Sequence record: PZ445515.1
Length of the DNA stretch: 64,000 nucleotides
DNA from: a phage
Direction: 5' to 3' (one strand)
Part shown: positions 748 to 43,151 of the stretch, piece after piece
How the letters are laid out: each line of letters begins with the position of its first letter
Position numbering within the stretch: position 1 is the stretch's first letter
The notes under the pieces: generated by a model
Told to the model about the DNA's origin: nothing
Database searches by the model: none
What the model saw: only the letters and a program-made list of their open reading frames with translations
Made by a program: the position numbers and the translations under genes

Positions 748-1366
748 AACAATACTCCTGTGTTGGAAATAAAATAAGTTTTCTTTAGGACTATTCAGAA
801 AGAATAGAACAACTGTTACTGTCAATTTCTCAACAAATTAATCGCAAATACTGAAGGGGGGTGGCAACTTCCACTTTCACGCTGCGCTGCTGCTTTGCTA
901 TATCGCACAAATCCTTGAGGATGGCCGCTAAGCCAGATTTGCTCACCTAATGCTTCATATACTAGCTCATACTAGATGCAATATAACTTACAGAATCACG
1001 TCTCGGAGTTTTTCACTCCTCCCATCTCACTTCACAACCACCTCATACTAGGTTGCTTCGAGGCCTTACCAGGGTTCCTATGGGACGCAGATCGCTAAGT
1101 ATTCTATTAACTATTTGTTTAAAAACTAACACGTAACAGTTAAAACAACCCTTAATGGGGCAGCCTAACTGTTCCGTATCGCGGATTGTAAACAAGAAAA
1201 ATTAGCAAAATCAATTTTTACTAATGTCTCTCAATTCAATATAAATATTATATCAAGATTTTGGGCATCCTGCAAGTAAAATTTTCCGGATGGTGCTATC
1301 ATTGGTCTTGAGTACGGATAAAACCGAGCCAAAATGACTCGGTAATCAGAGTTCAGCTAATAAAAA

Positions 1367-1759
1367 TCATTCATCATTTAAGCCTGGAACATAAATCCCA
1401 ACACGGTTTAATTGTTCTTTAGCTTCTTTGAGAATATCTGGAGTGTACTCCCAAATATCATCTTCCACCTGTAAAAGATGGGGCGAACAACCATCATCCG
1501 ACACACGACATATGGCCAAACCACGTGGGTGGAACAAAGAGAAATTTAGGGCAACAATTAAACCCATAGCAGACAACTCATTCCAATCCAACTCCCATTC
1601 CCCCGCGTAGCCGGATAGGAAAACACCAACACAGGGATCATCTATTTGCTGCTCCGGAAAAGTGAAGGAGGCTTGTCTTACCCCCAACCAACGTTGTAGC
1701 AGCTTCTCCGCACGTTTCACCAAACTAGGATCAATCTGACGCCAATATACTTGTTCCAT
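1367..1759 (-). CDS. hypothetical protein, paralog of adjacent 1769-2197 gene
   Basis: 130 aa ORF; shares W-x-ELD-x-MGL-x-ALN-x-LF-x-P and C-terminal IPGL motifs with neighbour. Confidence 0.6.
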   Translation of the reverse strand: MEQVYWRQIDPSLVKRAEKLLQRWLGVRQASFTFPEQQIDDPCVGVFLSGYAGEWELDWNELSAMGLIVALNFSLFHPRGLAICRVSDDGCSPHLLQVEDDIWEYTPDILKEAKEQLNRVGIYVPGLNDE

Positions 1760-1768
1760 TCTGCCTCC

Positions 1769-2197
1769 TTAAGCAGTTAAACCTGGGATCATATACCCGA
1801 AACGTCGAAGTTTCTGAATCCCCTCATTTACTTCTTCCGGTGAGTAAGACCAACCATAACGTTCATTAACCTGAAAACCAGGAGATTCACTAGTTTTATA
1901 GTTAACAACAAGGCGATGCTTAGCAGGCATAAACAGCTTATAATTTAACGCAAAAACTAAGCCCATTTCGTCTAACTCTTTCCAGCCCACAATCTCTTCA
2001 AGACCATCCTCTACCTGCACAATTAAACCAATACAGGGGGCCTCATCAATATCATCTTTAAAAGCAAAGGAGATTTCGTTATTCTCACACCATATTTTCA
2101 AGGAGTTAATAGCCTCATTATACAGGCTAGCCGGTAGAGTACGCCAAAAGTTAACCAAAATTGGGTTAGCTTCTTTAGAGAATACATTATTGAACAT
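1769..2197 (-). CDS. hypothetical protein, paralog of adjacent 1367-1759 gene
   Basis: 142 aa ORF; tandem duplicate of upstream gene by shared motifs. Confidence 0.6.
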   Translation of the reverse strand: MFNNVFSKEANPILVNFWRTLPASLYNEAINSLKIWCENNEISFAFKDDIDEAPCIGLIVQVEDGLEEIVGWKELDEMGLVFALNYKLFMPAKHRLVVNYKTSESPGFQVNERYGWSYSPEEVNEGIQKLRRFGYMIPGLTA

Positions 2198-2199
2198 AT

Positions 2200-2706
2200 T
2201 TACACCTTAAATTGTTGTAGGGCTTTACACATTTCAAGATCTGGACTAAATTCTAGCATATAGCTAACAGCCATTAAATCTTGAAGATTTATTCCAGTTC
2301 TACCGTTGACTATAACCGTTGGATACTGGTACATCATAGCACCAGCGTCATCCAGAACACACCAATGTTTGAGCTTATGCTTTTCAACGAAGCGAAGAAC
2401 AGAATTACCCCTAGATAATCCACCCCCAGTAAAATCCGTTGTACCAAGAAAACGATCGATAAGACCTAATCCGGTCATAATCTGAACGTTCTCCATCTCA
2501 TTCCTGACAGAGAACCATGAGGATACTCCAACAATCATTATCGGAGAAGGACGAATAAAGTCCTGAAAAGCCTTGAGAAGCGGTTTGAAAACCCAATCAC
2601 TTCCAAAGAAAATCTTTTCGTCATCAGGTGCATGATGGTGGGAGATGCTCGAATTGAGCACCCCATCAATATCTAGAAAAATAATTGGAGTATTACTTAT
2701 TTCCAT
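2200..2706 (-). CDS. HAD-superfamily phosphatase-like protein
   Basis: 168 aa; HAD motif I FLDIDGVL near N-terminus and VLDDAG motif IV-like. Confidence 0.5.
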   Translation of the reverse strand: MEISNTPIIFLDIDGVLNSSISHHHAPDDEKIFFGSDWVFKPLLKAFQDFIRPSPIMIVGVSSWFSVRNEMENVQIMTGLGLIDRFLGTTDFTGGGLSRGNSVLRFVEKHKLKHWCVLDDAGAMMYQYPTVIVNGRTGINLQDLMAVSYMLEFSPDLEMCKALQQFKV

Positions 2707-2902
2707 TTTTGTTCCTTTCTAAGAACGTATCATACTCAACCGTATCAACATATATAACACCATAGTCATCGGATTTATAGTCCATCTCCCACAGCTCACA
2801 GCGATAGCACCAACTACCATCCGCCCATACAAATATATCATCGGGGTGTGTATATACAGATTTAACTATGGACATATCTGTTTCCCTTGCTTCTCGACAC
2901 AT
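2693..2902 (-). CDS. hypothetical small protein
   Basis: 69 aa ORF bridging HAD and Sir2 genes with short overlaps. Confidence 0.3.
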   Translation of the reverse strand: MCREARETDMSIVKSVYTHPDDIFVWADGSWCYRCELWEMDYKSDDYGVIYVDTVEYDTFLERNKNGNK

Positions 2903-3698
2903 AAGGTCTACCCTCTAAATGAGCTTCTACACGAGCAATAAAATCAGGGTCACTGAAAGCATCTACCGCACCTTTACTCCAGTAAGGGATACCGCGTTCC
3001 TCCAGCTGGTACATCTCACTACGAGTCATACCTTGATAGCCCGGTTCCGCTGCGAGGGCACTATCATAGTAGTTAACAACCATAAGTTTCGCAGCAGTCA
3101 AACTAAGAACAGGAAATAATTCCCAGTAGAAGTTAATTACTTGGTTAGAGCAACCAACCACAATGATCATATCTTGACTGGTAATACCATCAAAAACATT
3201 ATACATTTCTGCGTATGCAGGAGCATGCTCTCCAAAGAAGATTACATTAGGTTTAACCCATTTATAATCATCTGGATCAATAGAATTGTATCCTACATCA
3301 ATAATCCGTTTATTGCTACTATTGTAGCTATCAGCTACAACAACCTCTTTTAAATATCCGTGAATATGCAGAATGTCACTATGTGGAACGCCAGCACGCT
3401 CAATAAGGTCATCAACGTTGGTAGTCAAGTTTACTATTTGACCTGGATATTGTTTATACCATTCACCAATACGCAAATGCGCAAGATTGGGTTCAACAGT
3501 TTTTAGCTCTTCACGACGCTTGTTGTAAAACATATGGGTTTTATGATAAAAATTACCACGAAAGGCATGAATATTACATACTTCTTCTAGATCATAGTCA
3601 TCCCACAATGCTTTACCACTAGCAGTATCAGTACGGAAGGCTCGTACACCACTTTCAACACTCAAACCTGCACCACTAATAATAATTAATCTACGCAT
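2862..3698 (-). CDS. Sir2-family (sirtuin-like) NAD-binding protein
   Basis: 278 aa; N-terminal GAGLSVESGVRAFR matches sirtuin GAGIS-SGIP-FR motif, later HIHG; no Zn CxxC pairs seen. Confidence 0.6.
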   Translation of the reverse strand: MRRLIIISGAGLSVESGVRAFRTDTASGKALWDDYDLEEVCNIHAFRGNFYHKTHMFYNKRREELKTVEPNLAHLRIGEWYKQYPGQIVNLTTNVDDLIERAGVPHSDILHIHGYLKEVVVADSYNSSNKRIIDVGYNSIDPDDYKWVKPNVIFFGEHAPAYAEMYNVFDGITSQDMIIVVGCSNQVINFYWELFPVLSLTAAKLMVVNYYDSALAAEPGYQGMTRSEMYQLEERGIPYWSKGAVDAFSDPDFIARVEAHLEGRPYVSRSKGNRYVHS

Positions 3699-3912
3699 TT
3701 TTCACCTGTTCTCTGAAGTTTTGCCCAATACTGTCTAATAGCTCAGCTAATTCTTTATTGCCTTTCTCCATTAAGGTATTAGCAATAACTTCTAGCATAG
3801 TAGCGCAGGATTCAACACCATCCTTATAGCCAGTTTCCCAGTGCTGCATTAATGCGTTTTCCAAAGCAGCGTTTAAACCCTTATCTGGTAGCATCGGCTT
3901 CGAGAATGCCAT
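3691..3912 (-). CDS. hypothetical protein
   Basis: 73 aa ORF in operon-like array, start/stop overlap with neighbours. Confidence 0.45.
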   Translation of the reverse strand: MAFSKPMLPDKGLNAALENALMQHWETGYKDGVESCATMLEVIANTLMEKGNKELAELLDSIGQNFREQVKNA

Positions 3913-4105
3913 AAAGTTTCTCCTCTAGTTCCATGATACGATTTTCATAAGAGGCACGCAACTTTTCAATTGCCAGCGCACGCACTGTAACCTCATTAGA
4001 ATTAATAGCTAATTGGGCCAGATCTTCCGTTTCCATACGTCCGTTGTAAATTAAGCGATATTTAAGGTGTTTTACATTCTTAGTCATTATTAAACTCCAC
4101 TGCAA
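3881..4105 (-). CDS. hypothetical protein
   Basis: 74 aa ORF, coiled-coil-like, overlaps neighbours. Confidence 0.45.
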   Translation of the reverse strand: MQWSLIMTKNVKHLKYRLIYNGRMETEDLAQLAINSNEVTVRALAIEKLRASYENRIMELEEKLYGILEADATR

Positions 4106-4460
4106 CTGTTTCTAGGTCTTCGTCAGAAAAACTAGAGTATATATCTTTAAGATACTGTTTAATACTCCAAGTAATATCTTCGTACCCATTGGGGCTACGT
4201 TGGTATACTTTTAACACTCTATTATACACAAATTCAAGATTACATTTTACTTCATCTCTGTCTTCATCAAACAAGCAATATGGATTATAAGGTGATACAT
4301 CTAGATTTGTTCCCACCCAATCGCCAATAATGGTAGGGTATGCAACACCCTCTATATGCGAGTAATCACCTGTGGCAGCAAAGACAGCCTCAGCAATATC
4401 ATCCACACCCAGATGGAAACCACCACAAGTAGATTCAACTATATAGGGCTTTAATTCCAT
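4080..4460 (-). CDS. hypothetical protein
   Basis: 126 aa ORF downstream of nrdD; no radical-SAM CxxxCxxC so not NrdG. Confidence 0.5.
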   Translation of the reverse strand: MELKPYIVESTCGGFHLGVDDIAEAVFAATGDYSHIEGVAYPTIIGDWVGTNLDVSPYNPYCLFDEDRDEVKCNLEFVYNRVLKVYQRSPNGYEDITWSIKQYLKDIYSSFSDEDLETVAVEFNND

Positions 4461-4528
4461 ATCTTTCTCCTCTCAAATTTATAAATCTATTATATATAAA
4501 TTTTTGGCTGAAAGCAAATAAAATAAAA

Positions 4529-4553
4529 GCCAGGTCGACTAGCAACCCGGCTG
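4529..4553 (-). terminator. putative rho-independent terminator after nrdD
   Basis: Imperfect hairpin agccagg/cccggct followed on minus strand by T-run. Confidence 0.35.
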
Positions 4554-4559
4554 ATTAGC

Positions 4560-6434
4560 TTATTTAGCTCGAATATCCTGATGTTTCACCCTGCCCATAA
4601 CCTCATGCTGTTTGCCTGGGTTAAATGGACGAGCACCTGGATTTCCAAGATACCCACAAACTCGACGAGTTACTTCAAGAGTTTCGGGGTCGTGATTACC
4701 ACAGATAGGGCACTTAAACCCGTCTTCGGATGCTATTGTTTCACCTAAGAATCCACATTTACCACAAGAATCTACTGGAGTATTAATACCGAAGTAATGA
4801 ACCTTACTAGCAGCATAATTAATAACCCATTCCAGTGCATCTGGGAATCGTTTCATATCCGGTAGTTCTACATAGGAAATACATCCACCAGAAGCAATAG
4901 GAGTAAAGTTAGATTCATAATCAAATTTCACATTGGGAGCAACTTTACGTTCTACATCAAGGTGGTGCGAGTTAGTGTAGTATCCTTTAGACAGAATATC
5001 TTCATGCTCTGGGAAATATTCACGGTCTAGACGACAAAAACGGTCACATAGGGATTCTGATGGTGTAGCATACAGGCTATAACCTAACTTAGTTTCTTCC
5101 TTCTTCTGATCGACTCTATCCCGCATGTACTGCAATACACGCTGAACAAACTTGATGCAGGTCTCGGACATTGTGTCTACATCTTTGCCAAACATGAACT
5201 GTAGCATTTCATGGCAACCAATATACCCTAGAGATACAGAAGCACGGTTATAGAAATGATCGAATACATATTCATCAGGCTCCAAGCGCAGTCCAAAGGC
5301 TCCTGACATATAGAGGATGGGCGCAGCTTTAGCTTGAATGTATTTTAAGCGATCAACTCTCCACTCCAATGCTTTTAACGCTGTATCCACACGTAGCTCA
5401 AGTAAATCAAAGAATAGGTCAATATTTCCTTCAGCTTCGATAGCAATTCTAGGCAAGTTTACAGAAACAACACCTAAGTTATTACGACCGGCAGTTTCAC
5501 CATCTTCTGTAGCAGCTAAGAATGAACGGCAGCCCATAGAAACTTTATAGTCACCAGTAACTTCCACAACCTTATCATAGCTGATATAATCTGGATACAT
5601 ACGTTCAGCAGTACATTTCATAGCTAACTTCTTGATGTCATAATTAACATCTCCTGGTTTCATGTTAACGCCATCACGAAGTACAAATACCAGTTTCGGG
5701 AAGATAGCTGTACGTTTATTGATACCTAAGCCATCCATGCGTACTTTCAGTATTGCTTTCTGTACTAGACGTGCTTCCCAAGAAGTTCCTAGACCAAAAC
5801 CAAAGGTAATAAATGGACTCTGACCATTAGAGTTGAACATGGTATTGATTTCATATTCTAGACCCTGACAGGCATCATAAACTTCTTTTTCAGTCATCTC
5901 CGTAGCCATTACTGATGCTTTGGCCTCATCTTTAGTCCAACGTTTTGCAAACGCATGATTTTTGTCATAGGATTTACGAACATAAGGAGCTAATACTTCA
6001 TCAAGGCGATCCACGGAAGTACCACCATACTGATGGGAGCTAACCTGTGTGATAATCTGAGCTGTAATAGCTGCCGCAGTAGTGATAGAGTTTGGAGTGC
6101 TAATTTCAGCATTACCAACCTTCATACCATTCTTCAACATATCTTCCAGAGCTACCAGACAACAATTAGTCATGCCTAATGCAGCATAATCAGCATCATG
6201 GAAATGAATATCCCCAATCATATGAGCATTTCGAATCTGAATTGGCATTTCTTCTAGAATCAGATACTTACTCAATTCACCTGCAAGCATATCCCTCTGT
6301 GTAGGGAAACGTTCTGAGGGTTTATTGGCATTATTAAACAGCAGCTCTTCATCTGCTGACCCTTCGATAATCTCTTTGCAGTTTCTAATTAACGCCTGCA
6401 TTTCTTTATACTTTAGTTCTTCATTGCGATTCAT
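4560..6434 (-). CDS. nrdD: anaerobic ribonucleoside-triphosphate reductase (class III)
   Basis: 624 aa; C-terminal glycyl-radical motif RVCGYLG, Cys-rich C-terminus, overall NrdD-like. Confidence 0.9.
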   Translation of the reverse strand: MNRNEELKYKEMQALIRNCKEIIEGSADEELLFNNANKPSERFPTQRDMLAGELSKYLILEEMPIQIRNAHMIGDIHFHDADYAALGMTNCCLVALEDMLKNGMKVGNAEISTPNSITTAAAITAQIITQVSSHQYGGTSVDRLDEVLAPYVRKSYDKNHAFAKRWTKDEAKASVMATEMTEKEVYDACQGLEYEINTMFNSNGQSPFITFGFGLGTSWEARLVQKAILKVRMDGLGINKRTAIFPKLVFVLRDGVNMKPGDVNYDIKKLAMKCTAERMYPDYISYDKVVEVTGDYKVSMGCRSFLAATEDGETAGRNNLGVVSVNLPRIAIEAEGNIDLFFDLLELRVDTALKALEWRVDRLKYIQAKAAPILYMSGAFGLRLEPDEYVFDHFYNRASVSLGYIGCHEMLQFMFGKDVDTMSETCIKFVQRVLQYMRDRVDQKKEETKLGYSLYATPSESLCDRFCRLDREYFPEHEDILSKGYYTNSHHLDVERKVAPNVKFDYESNFTPIASGGCISYVELPDMKRFPDALEWVINYAASKVHYFGINTPVDSCGKCGFLGETIASEDGFKCPICGNHDPETLEVTRRVCGYLGNPGARPFNPGKQHEVMGRVKHQDIRAK

Positions 6435-6684
6435 TATACTCTCCTTCTCTAACTAAGACTACTATTATAACTCATTCGAGGGCGGATGTCAACAATATTT
6501 TACTATAAAGTTCTGTAACATGATCTGAGTCAAAAAATTTTATTTGCCAATCTCTATTAAAAATTGTATAATCACGCACTCGTGCACGCGATATAAAATG
6601 ATTATCTAGTATCACACATCTCACGTTAAAAGCAAGCAAATTTTTTATTTAAATGCAATATCATAGGCTTATTTAAAATTGTAG

Positions 6685-6713
6685 TTGCTTTTTACTGTAT
6701 ATATTGGTATAAT
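6685..6713 (+). promoter_or_regulatory. sigma70-type early promoter
   Basis: TTGCTT -35, 17 bp spacer, TATAAT -10. Confidence 0.55.
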
Positions 6714-6786
6714 ATATTTGTAAGTTGATAAACAAGATCTTTTTGTTGATCCTCTGTTAGCGAAGTACACTATAGGAGTGTTATTT

Positions 6787-7539
6787 ATGGGAAAAGCACG
6801 TCAAAAAAGAGAGAACCGCAATGGTTCAAGAAAGCGTGGCAACAAGTATGAGAATAACGTAATTCAGGCTGATTTTTCTAATGATTACGCTAACCCAGTT
6901 GCTAAATCCCTAGTAGGTAAAAACCGCGAGCAAAAATCATATATCAATATGATCAAGAACAACACAGTGACTGTGGGCATCGGTGAGCCAGGTACTGGTA
7001 AAACCTTTATTCCGTCCGTTCTTGCAGCTCAGGAACTCGTAGACATTCACTCAGATATTGAGCAAGTGATCCTCGTACGTCCTAATGAACCTCTAGGTAA
7101 GTCTCTTGGTATGCTTCCTGGTGATCTAGCAGAAAAGCTAGAGCCTTGGTTGGAGCCAATAGCTGATGGTATGAAATGGGCCATCGGCGATCATGCCTAT
7201 AAGGGATATGTCGAACGTCAGAAAATTAAATTTTTGGCTGTCGAACATGCTCGTGGCAGAACTTTCAACAACTCCTATGTAATTGTCGATGAAGCTCAGA
7301 ATATTTCCGTTGAGGCAATGATTTGTCTTCTAACTCGTGTAGGGCAAGACTGCCGTTTAATTATCTGCGGAGATATAGCTCAGAAAGACATTAAAGGTGA
7401 CTCAGGTCTAGCACTCCTTATGGAAGTCTATGAGAAATACGAAAATGCCCCATTCTCAATGATCGAATTGATTGATAACGTTCGTTCTGTTGAGTCTAAA
7501 GCATTCTATGACATCTTTAAAGACATGGGGAAGGTGTAA
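6787..7539 (+). CDS. phoH: PhoH-like ATPase
   Basis: Walker A GEPGTGKTF and DEAQN Walker B; ATG at 6787 after GGAG. Confidence 0.85.
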   Translation: MGKARQKRENRNGSRKRGNKYENNVIQADFSNDYANPVAKSLVGKNREQKSYINMIKNNTVTVGIGEPGTGKTFIPSVLAAQELVDIHSDIEQVILVRPNEPLGKSLGMLPGDLAEKLEPWLEPIADGMKWAIGDHAYKGYVERQKIKFLAVEHARGRTFNNSYVIVDEAQNISVEAMICLLTRVGQDCRLIICGDIAQKDIKGDSGLALLMEVYEKYENAPFSMIELIDNVRSVESKAFYDIFKDMGKV

Positions 7540-17998: not shown

Positions 17999-18316
17999 AT
18001 GACTTTTCATATTTTGATTGATGATGTGCGTAATCTTCACGGAATGGACATTATCATTCGAACCCCAGAAGCCGCTGTAGAGTTTCTGAATAAAACTGAT
18101 ACCACCGGCCATTTCGTTTATATGGATAATGACTTGGCTGTAGATGGTATGGAAGGTTATCAAATTCTTCGTTTACTCTTAGAATTTGGGCAGAGACCAA
18201 AGAAAGTGGTACTAGTAACCTCGAACCCAGTAGCTAAGCAAAATATGCGTAATGATTTGCTTGACTTAGGGTATAAAGAAAATCCCAATCGTGTTGAATA
18301 TGATTGGCAGGAGTAA
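17999..18316 (+). CDS. hypothetical protein with receiver (CheY-like) domain resemblance
   Basis: 105 aa; ILIDDV...MDNDL...LVTSNP pattern resembles response-regulator receiver fold; tentative. Confidence 0.3.
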   Translation: MTFHILIDDVRNLHGMDIIIRTPEAAVEFLNKTDTTGHFVYMDNDLAVDGMEGYQILRLLLEFGQRPKKVVLVTSNPVAKQNMRNDLLDLGYKENPNRVEYDWQE

Positions 18317-42272: not shown

Positions 42273-42571
42273 TGAATGATAGAATGAAAGAAGTACGAGA
42301 AGAATTACGAGCAATGCGTATTGATGCCCTTCGTTGGAGGGCATTAGTTAATGCTTTCGTCAAAGGAGATACGGGGGTAATATATTCTGGGATAGCAGTC
42401 AATTTTTGTTTTAATTCTCCTACTGAAATAGAGGTAGAAACAAGGCTTACTACCTATCTTAATGAGGTAGACCTTAAGGAAGGAGAGACTTCCGAGGAGT
42501 TTAAAACCAAAGTGTTAACCTCTTGGGTTGATAGTTTAATACAGAATAAGGAAAAGAGTAATGAAAGTTAA
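42272..42571 (+). CDS. hypothetical protein
   Basis: 99 aa ORF. Confidence 0.5.
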   Translation: MNDRMKEVREELRAMRIDALRWRALVNAFVKGDTGVIYSGIAVNFCFNSPTEIEVETRLTTYLNEVDLKEGETSEEFKTKVLTSWVDSLIQNKEKSNES

Positions 42572-43151
42572 ATTCTGGTCAGACTTGCACCTAGACCACC
42601 CTGGAGCGTTACGTTTCCGTCCGTGGTTTAAGAACATGAAAGAGCACGATGAGTATATTCTAGATACTTTGTCCAAGCATATTGGTAAACGAACAAAACT
42701 TATTTTGCTAGGAGATATTGCAGTAGGTCGTGAAGGTCTAGCTAAATTAAAGTCGGTTATCCACAATGTTCCTAATCAACTGATTATGGGTAATCATGAT
42801 GCAGAACGTCAGGGACTGAGCATTAGGGACTTGGCGGAAGTTTATGACGATATTCAGGCTCTAGGTAAACAGACTGGAGGTGGCAAAAAGTTTTGGCTAT
42901 CTCACTGCCCTTTGCACCCTAATGAACTTCGTGGCAAACTAAATATTCACGGACACGTACATACTACTTCTCTACGTGATCCACGTTATATCAATGTCTC
43001 ATTTGAAATGAGTAAAACTCCAATTCCACTAGAAGATATTGTGTCTGGTAAGTTTACTAGTTACGATAGAGTAGTTAATTGTACTACCGGCGAGGTATTA
43101 CAAATAGGGGAAGACGTAGCTGCTGTATTGCGTGGTGATATAAATGTCTGA
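42561..43151 (+). CDS. metallophosphoesterase (calcineurin-like)
   Basis: 196 aa; SDLHLD, GDIAVG, GNHD, GHVH motifs. Confidence 0.7.
   Translation: MKVKFWSDLHLDHPGALRFRPWFKNMKEHDEYILDTLSKHIGKRTKLILLGDIAVGREGLAKLKSVIHNVPNQLIMGNHDAERQGLSIRDLAEVYDDIQALGKQTGGGKKFWLSHCPLHPNELRGKLNIHGHVHTTSLRDPRYINVSFEMSKTPIPLEDIVSGKFTSYDRVVNCTTGEVLQIGEDVAAVLRGDINV

What the first reader, a model, noticed from the sequence alone, without database searches (positions are those of the whole stretch)
1367..3698. Sir2-like protein, HAD phosphatase and a tandem paralog pair clustered downstream of nrdD
The Sir2-family protein has the GAGxS...G..FR NAD-binding signature but no Zn-ribbon cysteines. It lies beside a HAD-type phosphatase and two paralogous 130-142 aa proteins sharing ELD-x-MGL-x-ALN and IPGL motifs. 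SIR2 domains can be deacylases, ADP-ribosyltransferases or NADases. A phage-borne version next to a phosphatase could be an NAD-linked host-modification or counter-defence module rather than nucleotide metabolism.
Basis: partly seen in the sequence, partly recalled or inferred. Interest (0 to 1): 0.5.

Follow-up and report, generated by a model that had tools for sequence, protein, structure and literature searches.

The report
Phage T5 zinc-less sirtuin gene block
This stretch of phage T5 holds an already-annotated CobB-like sirtuin that has lost its zinc-binding cysteines, a small phosphatase and two copies of an uncharacterised phage domain; they sit side by side but do not behave as one conserved module, so the finding is real but largely ordinary.

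Summary
The window is phage T5. The Sir2 protein is a classical sirtuin. Its best sequence and fold matches are E. coli CobB and SIRT5, and every catalytic and NAD-binding motif is invariant, including the CobB/SIRT5 Y-x-x-R motif. It has no zinc-ribbon cysteines. It does not resemble defence-type SIR2 NADases or SirTM. The family occurs in at least 1000 phage records and is nearly absent from cellular genomes. Its zinc-less state and the T5 homolog were already noted in print in 2016.

The four genes are not a portable module. DUF7415 pairs and the HAD accompany Sir2 only in T5-like phages. Some T5-like phages lack the HAD. Two natural deletions remove Sir2, orf69 and the HAD N-terminus but keep both DUF7415 genes.

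Elsewhere the sirtuin's recurrent neighbours are NAMPT, Nudix, cREC and PhoH. That supports real NAD turnover and gives partial support to an "NAD-linked" reading. No result bears on counter-defence. The most likely function is NAD-dependent lysine deacylation of host or phage proteins, which is untested. DUF7415 has no known fold or function.

The parts
2862..3698 (-). Sir2-family protein (278 aa). It is a class III (CobB/SIRT5-like) sirtuin core without Zn-ribbon cysteines. Key residues: G9-A10-G11, F21-R22, Y58/R61 (Y-x-x-R), N94/D96, H113-G114, and the FFGE loop at 154-157.
   Evidence: Pfam PF02146 at E=1.2e-24. Best PDB sequence hit is CobB 1s5p at E=1.4e-17. AF2 model has pLDDT 89.8. 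All of the Foldseek top 50 are classical sirtuins, with CobB first. Invariant residues are listed. There is no conserved Cys cluster.
2693..2902 (-). orf69, a small conserved protein. Its probable true start is M10 at 2875, giving 60 aa. It carries a VW(A/P)DG(S/T)WCY motif. It overlaps the Sir2 stop and the HAD start.
   Evidence: phrog_5116 at E=9e-30 over residues 15-69. Homologs lie directly downstream of Sir2 in Sir2 clades 0, 3, 7 and 11. In Epseptimavirus it diverges together with Sir2, at 57-60% versus 52% identity, while the flanking genes are 90-98% identical.
2200..2706 (-). Stand-alone, probably cap-less HAD phosphatase (168 aa) of the 'Swiss-army-knife' HAD family. Motif I is DIDGVLN (D12, D14), motif II is S62-S63, motif IV is D119-D120, and R99 and R105 are conserved.
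   Evidence: Pfam PF18143 at E=4e-20. The motifs are invariant in T5, Epseptimavirus, Proteus PM2 and Aeromonas phiAS5 homologs. No PDB sequence relative was found. The family is described in PMC7824862.
1769..2197 (-). DUF7415 protein, 142 aa (T5.106). This is the divergent paralog. Its C-terminal DUF7415 domain (about residues 68-125) has lost the family's HPxGLA...R core and reads MPAKHRL...N.
1367..1759 (-). DUF7415 protein, 130 aa (T5.107). This is the near-canonical paralog. Its C-terminal domain (about residues 56-117) keeps DWNELS..GL..N...HPxGLA..R..G.S...D.WEY.
   Evidence: Pfam PF24187 at E=5e-31. The single-domain HMM hits at E=1.6e-21. It is paralogous to the 142-aa protein at E=7e-21. 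Each paralog has its own 1:1 ortholog in Eos and Roth49.
3691..4460 (-). Three small overlapping ORFs between nrdD and Sir2: orf126 at 4080-4460, orf74 at 3881-4105 and orf73 at 3691-3912. They belong to the same tightly packed run and have no known function.
   Evidence: ORF list. PHROG families 11748, 5236 and 5827, all of unknown function. Their presence varies among T5-like phages.
4560..6434 (-). nrdD, the anaerobic ribonucleotide reductase, which is the upstream landmark. A perfect sigma-70 consensus promoter lies at 6492-6464 and a terminator-like hairpin at 4552-4528, both on the minus strand.
   Evidence: Annotation. Promoter and terminator scan. The scan's totals did not exceed the shuffled expectation.

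Best explanation
The region is a tightly packed piece of the T5 early nucleotide-metabolism and replication gene region. It is best read as three separate things that happen to be neighbours.

(1) A sirtuin with its small downstream partner ORF. The sirtuin belongs to a phage-restricted branch of CobB/SIRT5-like (class III) sirtuins. The CxxC...CxxC zinc ligands were lost, but the beta-hairpin of the small domain was kept. It most likely works as a normal sirtuin. An acyl-lysine on a host or phage protein attacks C1' of NAD+. Nicotinamide leaves, H113 activates the ribose 2'-OH, and the products are deacylated lysine and 2'-O-acyl-ADP-ribose. The retained Y58-x-x-R61 suggests it accepts acidic acyl groups (succinyl or malonyl) as well as acetyl. 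What is shown: the fold, the motifs and their conservation. What is inferred: the activity, the substrate class and the targets.

(2) A stand-alone, cap-less HAD phosphatase with an intact DxD active site. It is an old but dispensable resident of the block. Its substrate is unknown. Candidates are an RNA or DNA 3'-phosphate end, a nucleotide, or a phosphorylated ADP-ribose product.

(3) Two anciently duplicated DUF7415 proteins. One keeps the family's conserved polar core and one has lost it. They probably act together, possibly as a heterodimer, in a replication- or nucleotide-linked role that does not depend on Sir2.
For: Sirtuin identity.
- PDB sequence and fold searches give CobB, Sir2-Af1 and SIRT5 first.
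- NCBIfam hits are all CobB-type deacylase models, below their cut-offs.
- Across 61 diverse homologs these residues are invariant: G9/A10/G11, F21/R22, F57/Y58/R61/R62, T93/N94/D96, H113/G114, K149/P150, F154/F155/E157.
- CobB Y92/R95 are published desuccinylase determinants (PMC6636992). The alignment places T5 FYNKRR on CobB FYNARR.
- The small domain is predicted with confidence despite having no Cys (pLDDT 89-96 for residues 111-150).

Zn loss is derived.
- Phage Sir2 clades 4, 12, 13 and 24 keep CxxC...CxxC around the same D(I/V)GY hairpin.

Real NAD turnover.
- NAMPT lies within 3.5 kb in 7 of 25 Sir2 clades, and again in the one close MAG locus.
- Nudix plus cREC lie directly downstream in 121Q-like phages and are fused in L131.

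Not one module.
- DUF7415 and the HAD are near Sir2 only in T5-like clades.
- Eos and Roth49 lack the HAD.
- Deletions in DT57C and SHSML-45 remove Sir2, orf69 and the HAD N-terminus but keep both DUF7415 genes at 95-96% identity.

DUF7415 context.
- Single-domain relatives lie immediately after the gpA replication gene in 33 of 80 loci, which carry P2-family genes.
- Others are fused to dATP/dGTP pyrophosphohydrolase, thymidylate kinase or an Rv2179c-like exonuclease.
- In T5 the pair abuts the D1 replication protein gene.
Against: - No biochemical or genetic data on T5 Sir2 were found.
- Zinc is usually regarded as structurally required in sirtuins, so activity without it is an assumption.
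- Sirtuins with the full deacylase motif set can also ADP-ribosylate, and sequence cannot exclude that.
- The recurrence of a phosphoesterase next to Sir2 is a pattern that the 'independent neighbours' reading leaves to coincidence. The phosphoesterase is the HAD in T5, cREC in rV5-like phages, and Nudix-cREC in jumbo phages.
- In L164, a distant T5-like phage, the order Sir2-small ORF-HAD is preserved with the HAD at only 44% identity. So the adjacency is old.
- 121Q-like Sir2 proteins lack the first Arg of Y-x-x-R.
- The 25 clades are not 25 independent lineages.
Confidence: 0.55

Rival explanations
1. NAD-linked two-step module, a refined version of the first reader's idea. Sir2 consumes NAD+ to make an ADP-ribose derivative on a protein, a nucleic acid or a small molecule. 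The adjacent HAD phosphatase processes the phosphorylated product. The pair serves host takeover or counter-defence.
For: - A phosphoesterase sits next to this sirtuin family in three contexts: the HAD in T5-like phages, cREC in rV5/Mydovirus-like phages, and Nudix plus cREC in 121Q-like phages.
- Sir2-small ORF-HAD order is kept in a distant T5-like phage with the HAD at only 44% identity.
- Both natural deletions take out Sir2 and the HAD catalytic end together.
- PMC7824862 links cRec to NAD+/ADPr-processing enzymes.
Against: - The HAD is absent from Eos and Roth49, which keep Sir2.
- HAD homologs in T4-like phages lie beside td or dCTPase with no Sir2 nearby.
- Sir2 has the full deacylase signature, and SirTM-type or defence-type features are absent.
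- The deletions are contiguous, so joint loss is expected by position alone.
- No evidence of a link to any defence system was found.
Confidence: 0.2
2. RNA-repair-associated sirtuin. The phage Sir2 family acts in nucleic-acid end healing, using NAD+ on a damaged RNA end in a way analogous to Tpt1 chemistry. SAK-HAD, cREC and Metallophos enzymes would clean the phosphate ends.
For: - In rV5-like and Mydovirus phages, Sir2 is embedded between RNA ligase, cREC and PNK on one side and ATP DNA ligase on the other, with a Metallophos nearby.
- PMC7824862 predicts that SAK-type HADs remove 3'-phosphates in RNA repair.
- T5 itself encodes a cREC (17999-18316) in its tRNA region and a homolog of the same Metallophos (42540-43148).
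Against: - No RNA ligase or PNK was detected in the window with the rV5-type models.
- T5's cREC is 14 kb away on the other strand.
- The association with RNA ligase is seen in essentially one syntenic lineage.
- The sirtuin keeps the peptide-binding FGE loop and the acyl-lysine Y-x-x-R.
- No sirtuin that acts on RNA is known to me.
Confidence: 0.1
3. NAD-consuming enzyme (NADase) or decaying passenger gene with no specific protein target.
For: - Two natural deletions show that Sir2 is dispensable for propagation.
- Sir2 alleles are swapped among T5-like phages. Identity is 52% where the flanks are 98% and 90%.
- According to PMC5107563, the KVP40 homolog was originally described as having an NAD+ hydrolysis role.
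Against: - Forty-five invariant columns, including every catalytic residue, are conserved across homologs down to 54% identity. The genes are intact in hundreds of genomes. That argues for strong purifying selection.
- There is no similarity to known NADase SIR2 effectors.
- Adjacency to NAMPT argues for recycling rather than depletion.
Confidence: 0.07

Closest known systems
E. coli CobB and human SIRT5 (class III sirtuins, NAD-dependent lysine deacetylase/desuccinylase)
   Same: - Best sequence and fold matches.
- Same Rossmann core and same motifs: GAGxSxxSG, FR, (T/Q)N(V/I)D, HG, FGE.
- Same FYNxRR with the Y-x-x-R desuccinylase determinants.
   Different: - Only about 24% identity.
- All four zinc-ligand cysteines are absent.
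- About 50 extra C-terminal residues (TM-score 0.70 on the query versus 0.85 on CobB).
- Scores fall far below the NCBIfam CobB cut-offs.
- The family is phage-restricted.
Sir2/CobB of Vibrio phages KVP40, phiSt2 and phiGrn1 (Skliros et al. 2016, PMC5107563)
   Same: - Same phage sirtuin family (35% identity).
- The paper already reports the missing zinc ligand, the conserved catalytic His, the link to NAMPT-based NAD+ salvage, and that T5 carries a homolog.
   Different: - The T5 genome context differs: nrdD-Sir2-orf69-HAD-DUF7415.
- No NAMPT was found in the window.
- That work was also in silico plus transcript profiling, so the function is untested in both.
SirTM (class M, macrodomain-linked ADP-ribosylating sirtuins)
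   Same: Sirtuin fold, and microbial or conflict-related setting.
   Different: - SirTM replaces HG by QG, keeps a zinc domain and is operon-linked to a macrodomain, GcvH-L and LplA2.
- T5 has an invariant HG, no zinc ligands and no macrodomain neighbour.
Defence-associated SIR2 NADases (ThsA, DSR1/2, SIR2-HerA, SIR2-pAgo)
   Same: SIR2 superfamily, and no zinc ribbon.
   Different: - No PADLOC model matches.
- None appears among the top 50 structural matches.
- T5 Sir2 keeps the peptide-binding FGE loop and Y-x-x-R.
- It has no fused or adjacent sensor or partner domain.
'Swiss-army-knife' HAD family (PF18143), by analogy with the HAD phosphatase domain of T4 Pnkp
   Same: - Full-length Pfam match.
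- Intact DxD motif and motifs II to IV.
- Stand-alone, as described for phage members.
   Different: - No kinase or RNA ligase partner was detected in the window.
- Distant homologs sit in nucleotide-metabolism neighbourhoods.
- The substrate is untested.
DUF7415 (PF24187) single-domain phage proteins
   Same: The C-terminal halves of both T5 proteins match the roughly 55-aa consensus DWNELSelGLixRINxEILHPLGLAxxRdpetGxSxGxLvxDDGxWEY.
   Different: - The T5 proteins carry an extra N-terminal half that is specific to T5-like phages.
- They come as an ancient tandem pair.
- One copy has lost the conserved His/Arg core.
- No function, literature or solved structure exists for the family.

Membership tests
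Classical sirtuins, class III (CobB/SIRT5) | Rossmann NAD-binding motifs GAGxSxxxG and FR | tested here: met
   G9-A10-G11-L-S13..S16-G17 and F21-R22 are invariant in 61 homologs. Pfam SIR2 matches at E=1.2e-24.
Classical sirtuins, class III (CobB/SIRT5) | Catalytic His in the HG motif, and Asn/Asp of the (T/Q)N(I/V)D motif | tested here: met
   H113-G114, N94 and D96 are invariant. They align to the CobB equivalents.
Classical sirtuins, class III (CobB/SIRT5) | Four-cysteine zinc ribbon in the small domain | tested here: not met
   There is no Cys in residues 115-148 and no conserved Cys cluster in 120 homologs. Related phage clades 4, 12, 13 and 24 still have CxxC...CxxC.
Classical sirtuins, class III (CobB/SIRT5) | Y-x-x-R acyl-pocket pair, the determinants of desuccinylase/demalonylase activity | tested here: met
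   Y58 and R61 in FYNKRR are invariant in A3 and align to CobB FYNARR. Their role is taken from PMC6636992. The first Arg is missing in 121Q-like members.
Classical sirtuins, class III (CobB/SIRT5) | Overall fold match to solved deacylase sirtuins | tested here: met
   Foldseek gives CobB 1s5p at E=1.8e-17 with TM 0.85 on the target. All of the top 50 are classical sirtuins. The model has pLDDT 89.8.
Classical sirtuins, class III (CobB/SIRT5) | NAD-dependent lysine deacylase activity | not testable with these tools
   This needs an enzyme assay. No published assay of a phage member was found.
SirTM (class M ADP-ribosylating sirtuins) | HG replaced by QG | tested here: not met
   HG is invariant. 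The definition comes from PMC4518038.
SirTM (class M ADP-ribosylating sirtuins) | Operon linkage or fusion to a macrodomain (plus GcvH-L and LplA2) | tested here: not met
   None of the eight minus-strand ORFs downstream of nrdD in the window has a macrodomain hit in Pfam. No macrodomain appeared among the recurrent neighbour clusters that were annotated.
Defence-type SIR2 NADases (ThsA, DSR, SIR2-HerA) | Match to curated defence-system SIR2 models, or fold closest to them | tested here: not met
   No PADLOC hit at E<=0.01. None appears among the top 50 PDB structural matches.
Defence-type SIR2 NADases (ThsA, DSR, SIR2-HerA) | Fused or adjacent sensor or partner (SLOG, HerA, pAgo, large C-terminal domain) | tested here: not met
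   The protein is a single-domain 278-aa protein. Its neighbours are orf73, orf69 and the HAD.
HAD superfamily phosphatases, HAD_SAK_2 (PF18143) | Motif I DxD nucleophile/acid pair, motif II Ser/Thr, motif III Lys/Arg, motif IV acidic pair | tested here: met
   D12, D14, S62/S63, R99/R105 and D119/D120 are invariant across T5, Epseptimavirus, PM2 and phiAS5 homologs. The Pfam match covers positions 1-138 of 139 at E=4e-20.
HAD superfamily phosphatases, HAD_SAK_2 (PF18143) | Genomic association with RNA-repair enzymes (ligase, kinase), as in the family's description | tested here: not met
   No Rnl or PNK was detected in the window with the rV5-type HMMs. In phiAS5 an RNA ligase lies three genes away, so overall this is weak.
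DUF7415 (PF24187) | Match to the conserved roughly 55-aa domain | tested here: met
   Pfam matches at E=5e-31 and 3e-35. An independent HMM built from 57 distant single-domain proteins hits residues 56-117 (E=1.6e-21) and 68-125 (E=1.4e-9).
DUF7415 (PF24187) | Internal tandem duplication of the domain within each T5 protein, suggested by Pfam's '2 stretches' | tested here: not met
   hhalign of the N-terminal half against the C-terminal half gives a probability of 5%. The independent HMM hits only the C-terminal halves.

The most novel reading that the evidence does not exclude
The phage-restricted, zinc-less sirtuin family is not a protein deacylase. It would be the NAD+-using step of a small pathway whose second step is a lineage-specific phosphoesterase: the SAK-HAD in T5-like phages, cREC in rV5-like phages, and Nudix-cREC in Rak2-like jumbo phages. 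Such a pathway could modify or repair a nucleic-acid end, or make or destroy an ADP-ribose-derived molecule during infection. The small orf69 protein would be a specificity partner. Separately, the DUF7415 pair (one intact copy and one degenerate copy) would be a new fold that acts on replication or nucleotide enzymes.
Probability: 0.12. Interest if true: 0.7.

Novelty: already known. Interest (0 to 1): 0.3.

Why it matters
Sirtuin genes occur in at least a thousand sequenced virulent phages, including the classic model T5. The literature searched here holds no assay of any of them. NAD+ is now recognised as a central battleground between phages and bacterial immunity (NARP1-3, Thoeris, DSR, Sir2-HerA). 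A phage enzyme that deliberately spends NAD+, and that often sits next to NAMPT, is therefore worth a direct test.

A sirtuin that folds and works without zinc would also interest enzymologists.

For this specific finding the practical value is mainly corrective.
- The four genes should not be treated as one module.
- The 'Sir2' label that Pharokka/PHROGs gives to the HAD gene is an artefact.
- DT57C and SHSML-45 are ready-made natural Sir2/HAD deletion strains for experiments.

Tried and rejected
- PADLOC defence models gave no hit for any of the five proteins.
- PDB sequence searches for the HAD, with a single sequence and with a 4-sequence profile, gave nothing meaningful.
- Pfam's '2 stretches' suggested an internal repeat in the DUF7415 proteins. 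hhalign and an independent HMM did not confirm it.
- I first thought the HAD was a recent insertion, because it is 90% identical between genera where Sir2 is only 52%. I rejected this. The flanking genes are also 98% identical, and a distant T5-like phage has the HAD at 44% identity in the same position. Sir2 plus orf69 is the replaced allele.
- Single-protein locus searches with the 121Q and KVP40 Sir2 proteins returned almost only the same phages. The alignment A4 was too diverse to use for a locus scan.
- The Burroughs & Aravind 2016 RNA-repair paper is not held.
- NARP3 (PnuC plus NadR) is not annotated in positions 1-42000 of the T5_ev212 record, nor in the stretch of a related Tequintavirus that corresponds roughly to window 6-23 kb. 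I dropped it as tangential.
- Labels such as 'exonuclease', 'tail tube' and 'tail assembly' on DUF7415 proteins in GenBank records have no support from any profile.


Full report
IDENTITY OF THE WINDOW AND CHECK OF THE OBSERVATION

Positions 1000-7000 of the window are 100% identical to Escherichia phage T5_ev212, and 203 phage records cover at least 80% of that stretch. The ORF list confirms a minus-strand run of genes:
- nrdD, 4560-6434
- three small ORFs, 4460-3691
- Sir2, 3698-2862
- a 69-codon ORF, 2902-2693
- a HAD protein, 2706-2200
- two proteins of 142 aa (2197-1769) and 130 aa (1759-1367)

From 4460 to 1367 the genes overlap or are at most 9 nt apart.

Pfam assigns SIR2 (E=1.2e-24), HAD_SAK_2 (E=4e-20, full length) and DUF7415 (E=5e-31 and 3e-35). 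The two DUF7415 proteins align at 32% identity with E=7e-21. The Sir2 protein has only two cysteines, and neither lies in the small-domain segment.

WHAT THE SIR2 PROTEIN IS

Sequence search of the PDB puts E. coli CobB first (E=1.4e-17), followed by Sir2-Af1/Af2 and SIRT5. NCBIfam hits are all CobB-type deacylase models, well below their equivalog cut-offs. No PADLOC defence model matches.

An AlphaFold2 model built from 61 homologs is confident (pLDDT 89.8, pTM 0.87). The cysteine-free small domain is also confident (blocks 111-150 at 89-96). Foldseek against the PDB returns only classical sirtuins in the top 50, again with CobB first (E=1.8e-17, TM 0.85 on CobB).

These residues are invariant across homologs down to 54% identity:
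- G9/A10/G11, S13, S16/G17
- F21/R22
- F57/Y58/R61/R62
- T93/N94/D96
- H113/G114
- K149/P150
- F154/F155/E157

The FYNKRR segment aligns with CobB FYNARR. CobB Tyr92 and Arg95 are published desuccinylase determinants (PMC6636992). SirTM enzymes are defined by HG replaced with QG and by macrodomain linkage (PMC4518038), and T5 meets neither. By every testable criterion except the zinc ribbon, the protein is a class III deacylase-type sirtuin.

HOW NEW IS THAT

Not very. Skliros et al. 2016 (PMC5107563) modelled the Sir2/CobB of Vibrio phages on CobB. They reported that the zinc ligand is missing there and in KVP40. They noted the conserved catalytic His, discussed the NAMPT-sirtuin relationship and listed T5 among phages with a homolog. 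They proposed deacetylation of host acetyl-CoA synthetase. No biochemical study of any phage sirtuin turned up.

THE FAMILY AND ITS CONTEXTS

tblastn finds the protein in 1000 phage records, a round number that may be a cap. They include T5-like phages, rV5-like Vequintavirinae, Mydovirus, phi92-like phages, KVP40-like phages and Rak2/121Q-like jumbo phages. In 185,579 cellular species genomes only six loci match the family patterns. The one close Zn-less hit lies on a 43-kb MAG contig.

I collected 87 Sir2 loci and grouped them into 25 clades at 65% identity. Four clades (4, 12, 13, 24) retain CxxC...CxxC around a conserved D(I/V)GY hairpin. The T5-type clades keep the hairpin but have no cysteines there. 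Zinc loss is therefore derived within a phage sirtuin family.

Neighbour clustering within 3.5 kb, with Pfam confirmation, gives these counts:
- PhoH, 8 clades
- NAMPT, 7 clades, plus the MAG locus
- cREC, partly fused to or preceded by a Nudt16-like Nudix, 6 clades
- a calcineurin-like phosphoesterase, 6 clades
- NrdD, 5 clades
- ATP DNA ligase, 5 clades
- RNA ligase and a P-loop kinase, 4 clades each
- DUF7415, 4 clades
- the HAD, 3 clades

The last two are found only in T5-like phages. These clades are not independent lineages. The cREC association amounts to two lineages, rV5/Mydovirus-like and Rak2-like. The NAMPT association covers the Rak2-like group plus several unrelated contigs.

The recurring presence of the nicotinamide-recycling enzyme and of ADP-ribose or phosphoester hydrolases is what one expects around an enzyme that really turns over NAD+.

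IS SIR2-HAD-DUF7415 A MODULE?

Evidence against:
- Outside Demerecviridae, no HAD, DUF7415 or orf69 homolog lies within 5 kb of Sir2 in the five loci examined. The exception is orf69 in clade 11.
- The T5-like phages Eos and Roth49 have Sir2-orf69-DUF7415x2 with no HAD.
- DT57C carries a 90-aa in-frame remnant that fuses Sir2 residues 171 to about 213 to HAD residues 128-168. SHSML-45 has lost everything from orf73 residue 25 to HAD residue 63. Both keep the DUF7415 genes at 95-96% identity.
- Distant HAD homologs in T4-like phages lie next to thymidylate synthase (phiAS5) or near the dCTPase (PM2), with no Sir2 or DUF7415 nearby.

Evidence for some Sir2-HAD link:
- L164 is a 122-kb T5-like contig with NrdD at 73% and PhoH at 66% identity. 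It preserves Sir2-small ORF-HAD-...-DUF7415 with the HAD at 44% identity, so the adjacency is old.
- A phosphoesterase of some kind sits next to Sir2 in three contexts.

I therefore rate a functional Sir2-HAD coupling as possible (about 0.2) but not the leading reading. The DUF7415 pair is independent of Sir2.

MOSAICISM

Between T5 and Epseptimavirus the identities are as follows:
- PhoH 97-98%
- NrdD 98% in three of four loci (60% in L185, the alternative allele)
- HAD 90-91%
- DUF7415 75-76% and 64-72%
- Sir2 51-52%
- orf69 57-60%

So the Sir2 plus orf69 pair has been replaced by a divergent allele. T5's Sir2 is closer to Mydovirus Sir2 (59-61%) than to the Sir2 of its sister genus. NrdD also exists as two alleles (about 100% and about 61%) within Tequintavirus, so allele swapping is general in this region. 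It is not a special signature of Sir2.

THE HAD

All four HAD motifs are intact and invariant. I infer that the protein has no cap, from about 45 residues between motifs I and II; this was not tested. In the HAD superfamily that feature usually goes with macromolecular substrates, which I state from general knowledge. PMC7824862 describes stand-alone 'Swiss-army-knife' HADs of phages as predicted 3'-phosphatases in RNA end healing.

THE DUF7415 PAIR

An exhaustive profile search found 196 relatives at E<=0.001. Most match only the C-terminal half of the T5 proteins. Aligning 57 short relatives gives a strongly conserved domain of about 55 aa.

The 130-aa T5 protein keeps the consensus core, including HPxGLA...R. 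The 142-aa protein has lost it. Each paralog has its own ortholog in Eos and Roth49, so the duplication is old.

Context of relatives:
- Some are fused to dATP/dGTP pyrophosphohydrolase, thymidylate kinase or an Rv2179c-like exonuclease.
- In 33 of 80 viral loci the single-domain gene lies immediately after the gpA replication initiator. These loci also carry P2-family genes.
- In T5 the pair abuts the D1 replication protein gene.

No paper mentions DUF7415. A replication- or nucleotide-linked accessory role is the best guess, and it is weakly supported.

VERDICT

It overreaches on modularity and counter-defence, and it picks the less likely activities. The central feature is an annotated T5 gene whose zinc-less nature is already in the literature, so novelty is low. 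The untested biochemistry of phage sirtuins and the unknown DUF7415 fold keep a modest residual interest.

Noticed in passing
window 2200-2706 (-); L006:3980-4252 (DT57C); L038 (SHSML-45): Many GenBank records annotated with Pharokka/PHROGs label the HAD gene 'Sir2 NAD-dependent deacetylase'. The label traces to PHROG 18062 (92 aa). That family matches HAD residues 77-168 and only weakly matches Sir2. It appears to be built from deletion remnants such as the DT57C Sir2::HAD fusion ('sir2 defective') and the SHSML-45 truncated HAD. This is an annotation artefact that is propagating through databases.
   Followed up: yes
window 2693-2902 (-): A small conserved ORF (orf69, probable start at 2875) with a VW(A/P)DG(S/T)WCY motif overlaps both the Sir2 stop and the HAD start. 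Homologs directly follow Sir2 in T5-like clades and in one non-T5-like clade (L176/L177). It co-diverges with Sir2 in Epseptimavirus. It may be a sirtuin partner.
   Followed up: partly
window 17999-18316 (+): T5 encodes a 105-aa cREC ('cyclic-phosphate processing receiver') domain protein (PF20274, E=4e-15). It lies in the tRNA-rich region next to a SleB-like cell-wall hydrolase. In rV5-like and 121Q-like phages, cREC genes sit directly beside the Sir2 gene.
   Followed up: partly
window 42540-43148 (+): A calcineurin-like phosphoesterase here is homologous (HMM E=9e-22) to the Metallophos gene that lies in the RNA ligase/PNK/cREC/Sir2 block of rV5-like and Mydovirus phages.
   Followed up: no
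L131:5783-6688; L007:5714-6595: In Rak2/121Q-like jumbo phages, Sir2 is followed by a Nudt16-like Nudix hydrolase and a cREC protein. In L131 the two are fused into one 301-aa protein. PhoH lies two genes further on, and NAMPT lies upstream in L131 and L127.
   Followed up: partly
window 4560-6434 (-) and T5-like loci L139, L141, L144, L146, L147, L150, L185: NrdD exists as two very different alleles (about 100% and about 61% identity to T5) among otherwise near-identical Tequintavirus genomes, which shows strong mosaicism in this region.
   Followed up: no
window 6464-6492 (-), 6544-6572 (+), 4528-4552 (-): A perfect sigma-70 consensus (TTGACA-17-TATAAT) lies upstream of nrdD. A near-perfect divergent consensus lies upstream of phoH. 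A 10-bp-stem terminator-like hairpin lies right after the nrdD stop codon and ahead of the small-ORF/Sir2 run.
   Followed up: no
L040-L119 (viral contigs): Single-domain DUF7415 genes are common in 30-40 kb phage contigs that carry P2-family genes. In 33 of 80 loci they sit immediately downstream of the gpA replication gene. Other relatives are fused to dATP/dGTP pyrophosphohydrolase, thymidylate kinase or an Rv2179c-like 3'-5' exonuclease.
   Followed up: partly
window 1367-2197 (-): DUF7415 proteins carry unsupported names in public records, including 'Phage exonuclease (ACLAME 70)', 'tail tube protein' and 'tail assembly protein'. The exonuclease label may derive from exonuclease-DUF7415 fusion proteins.
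   Followed up: partly
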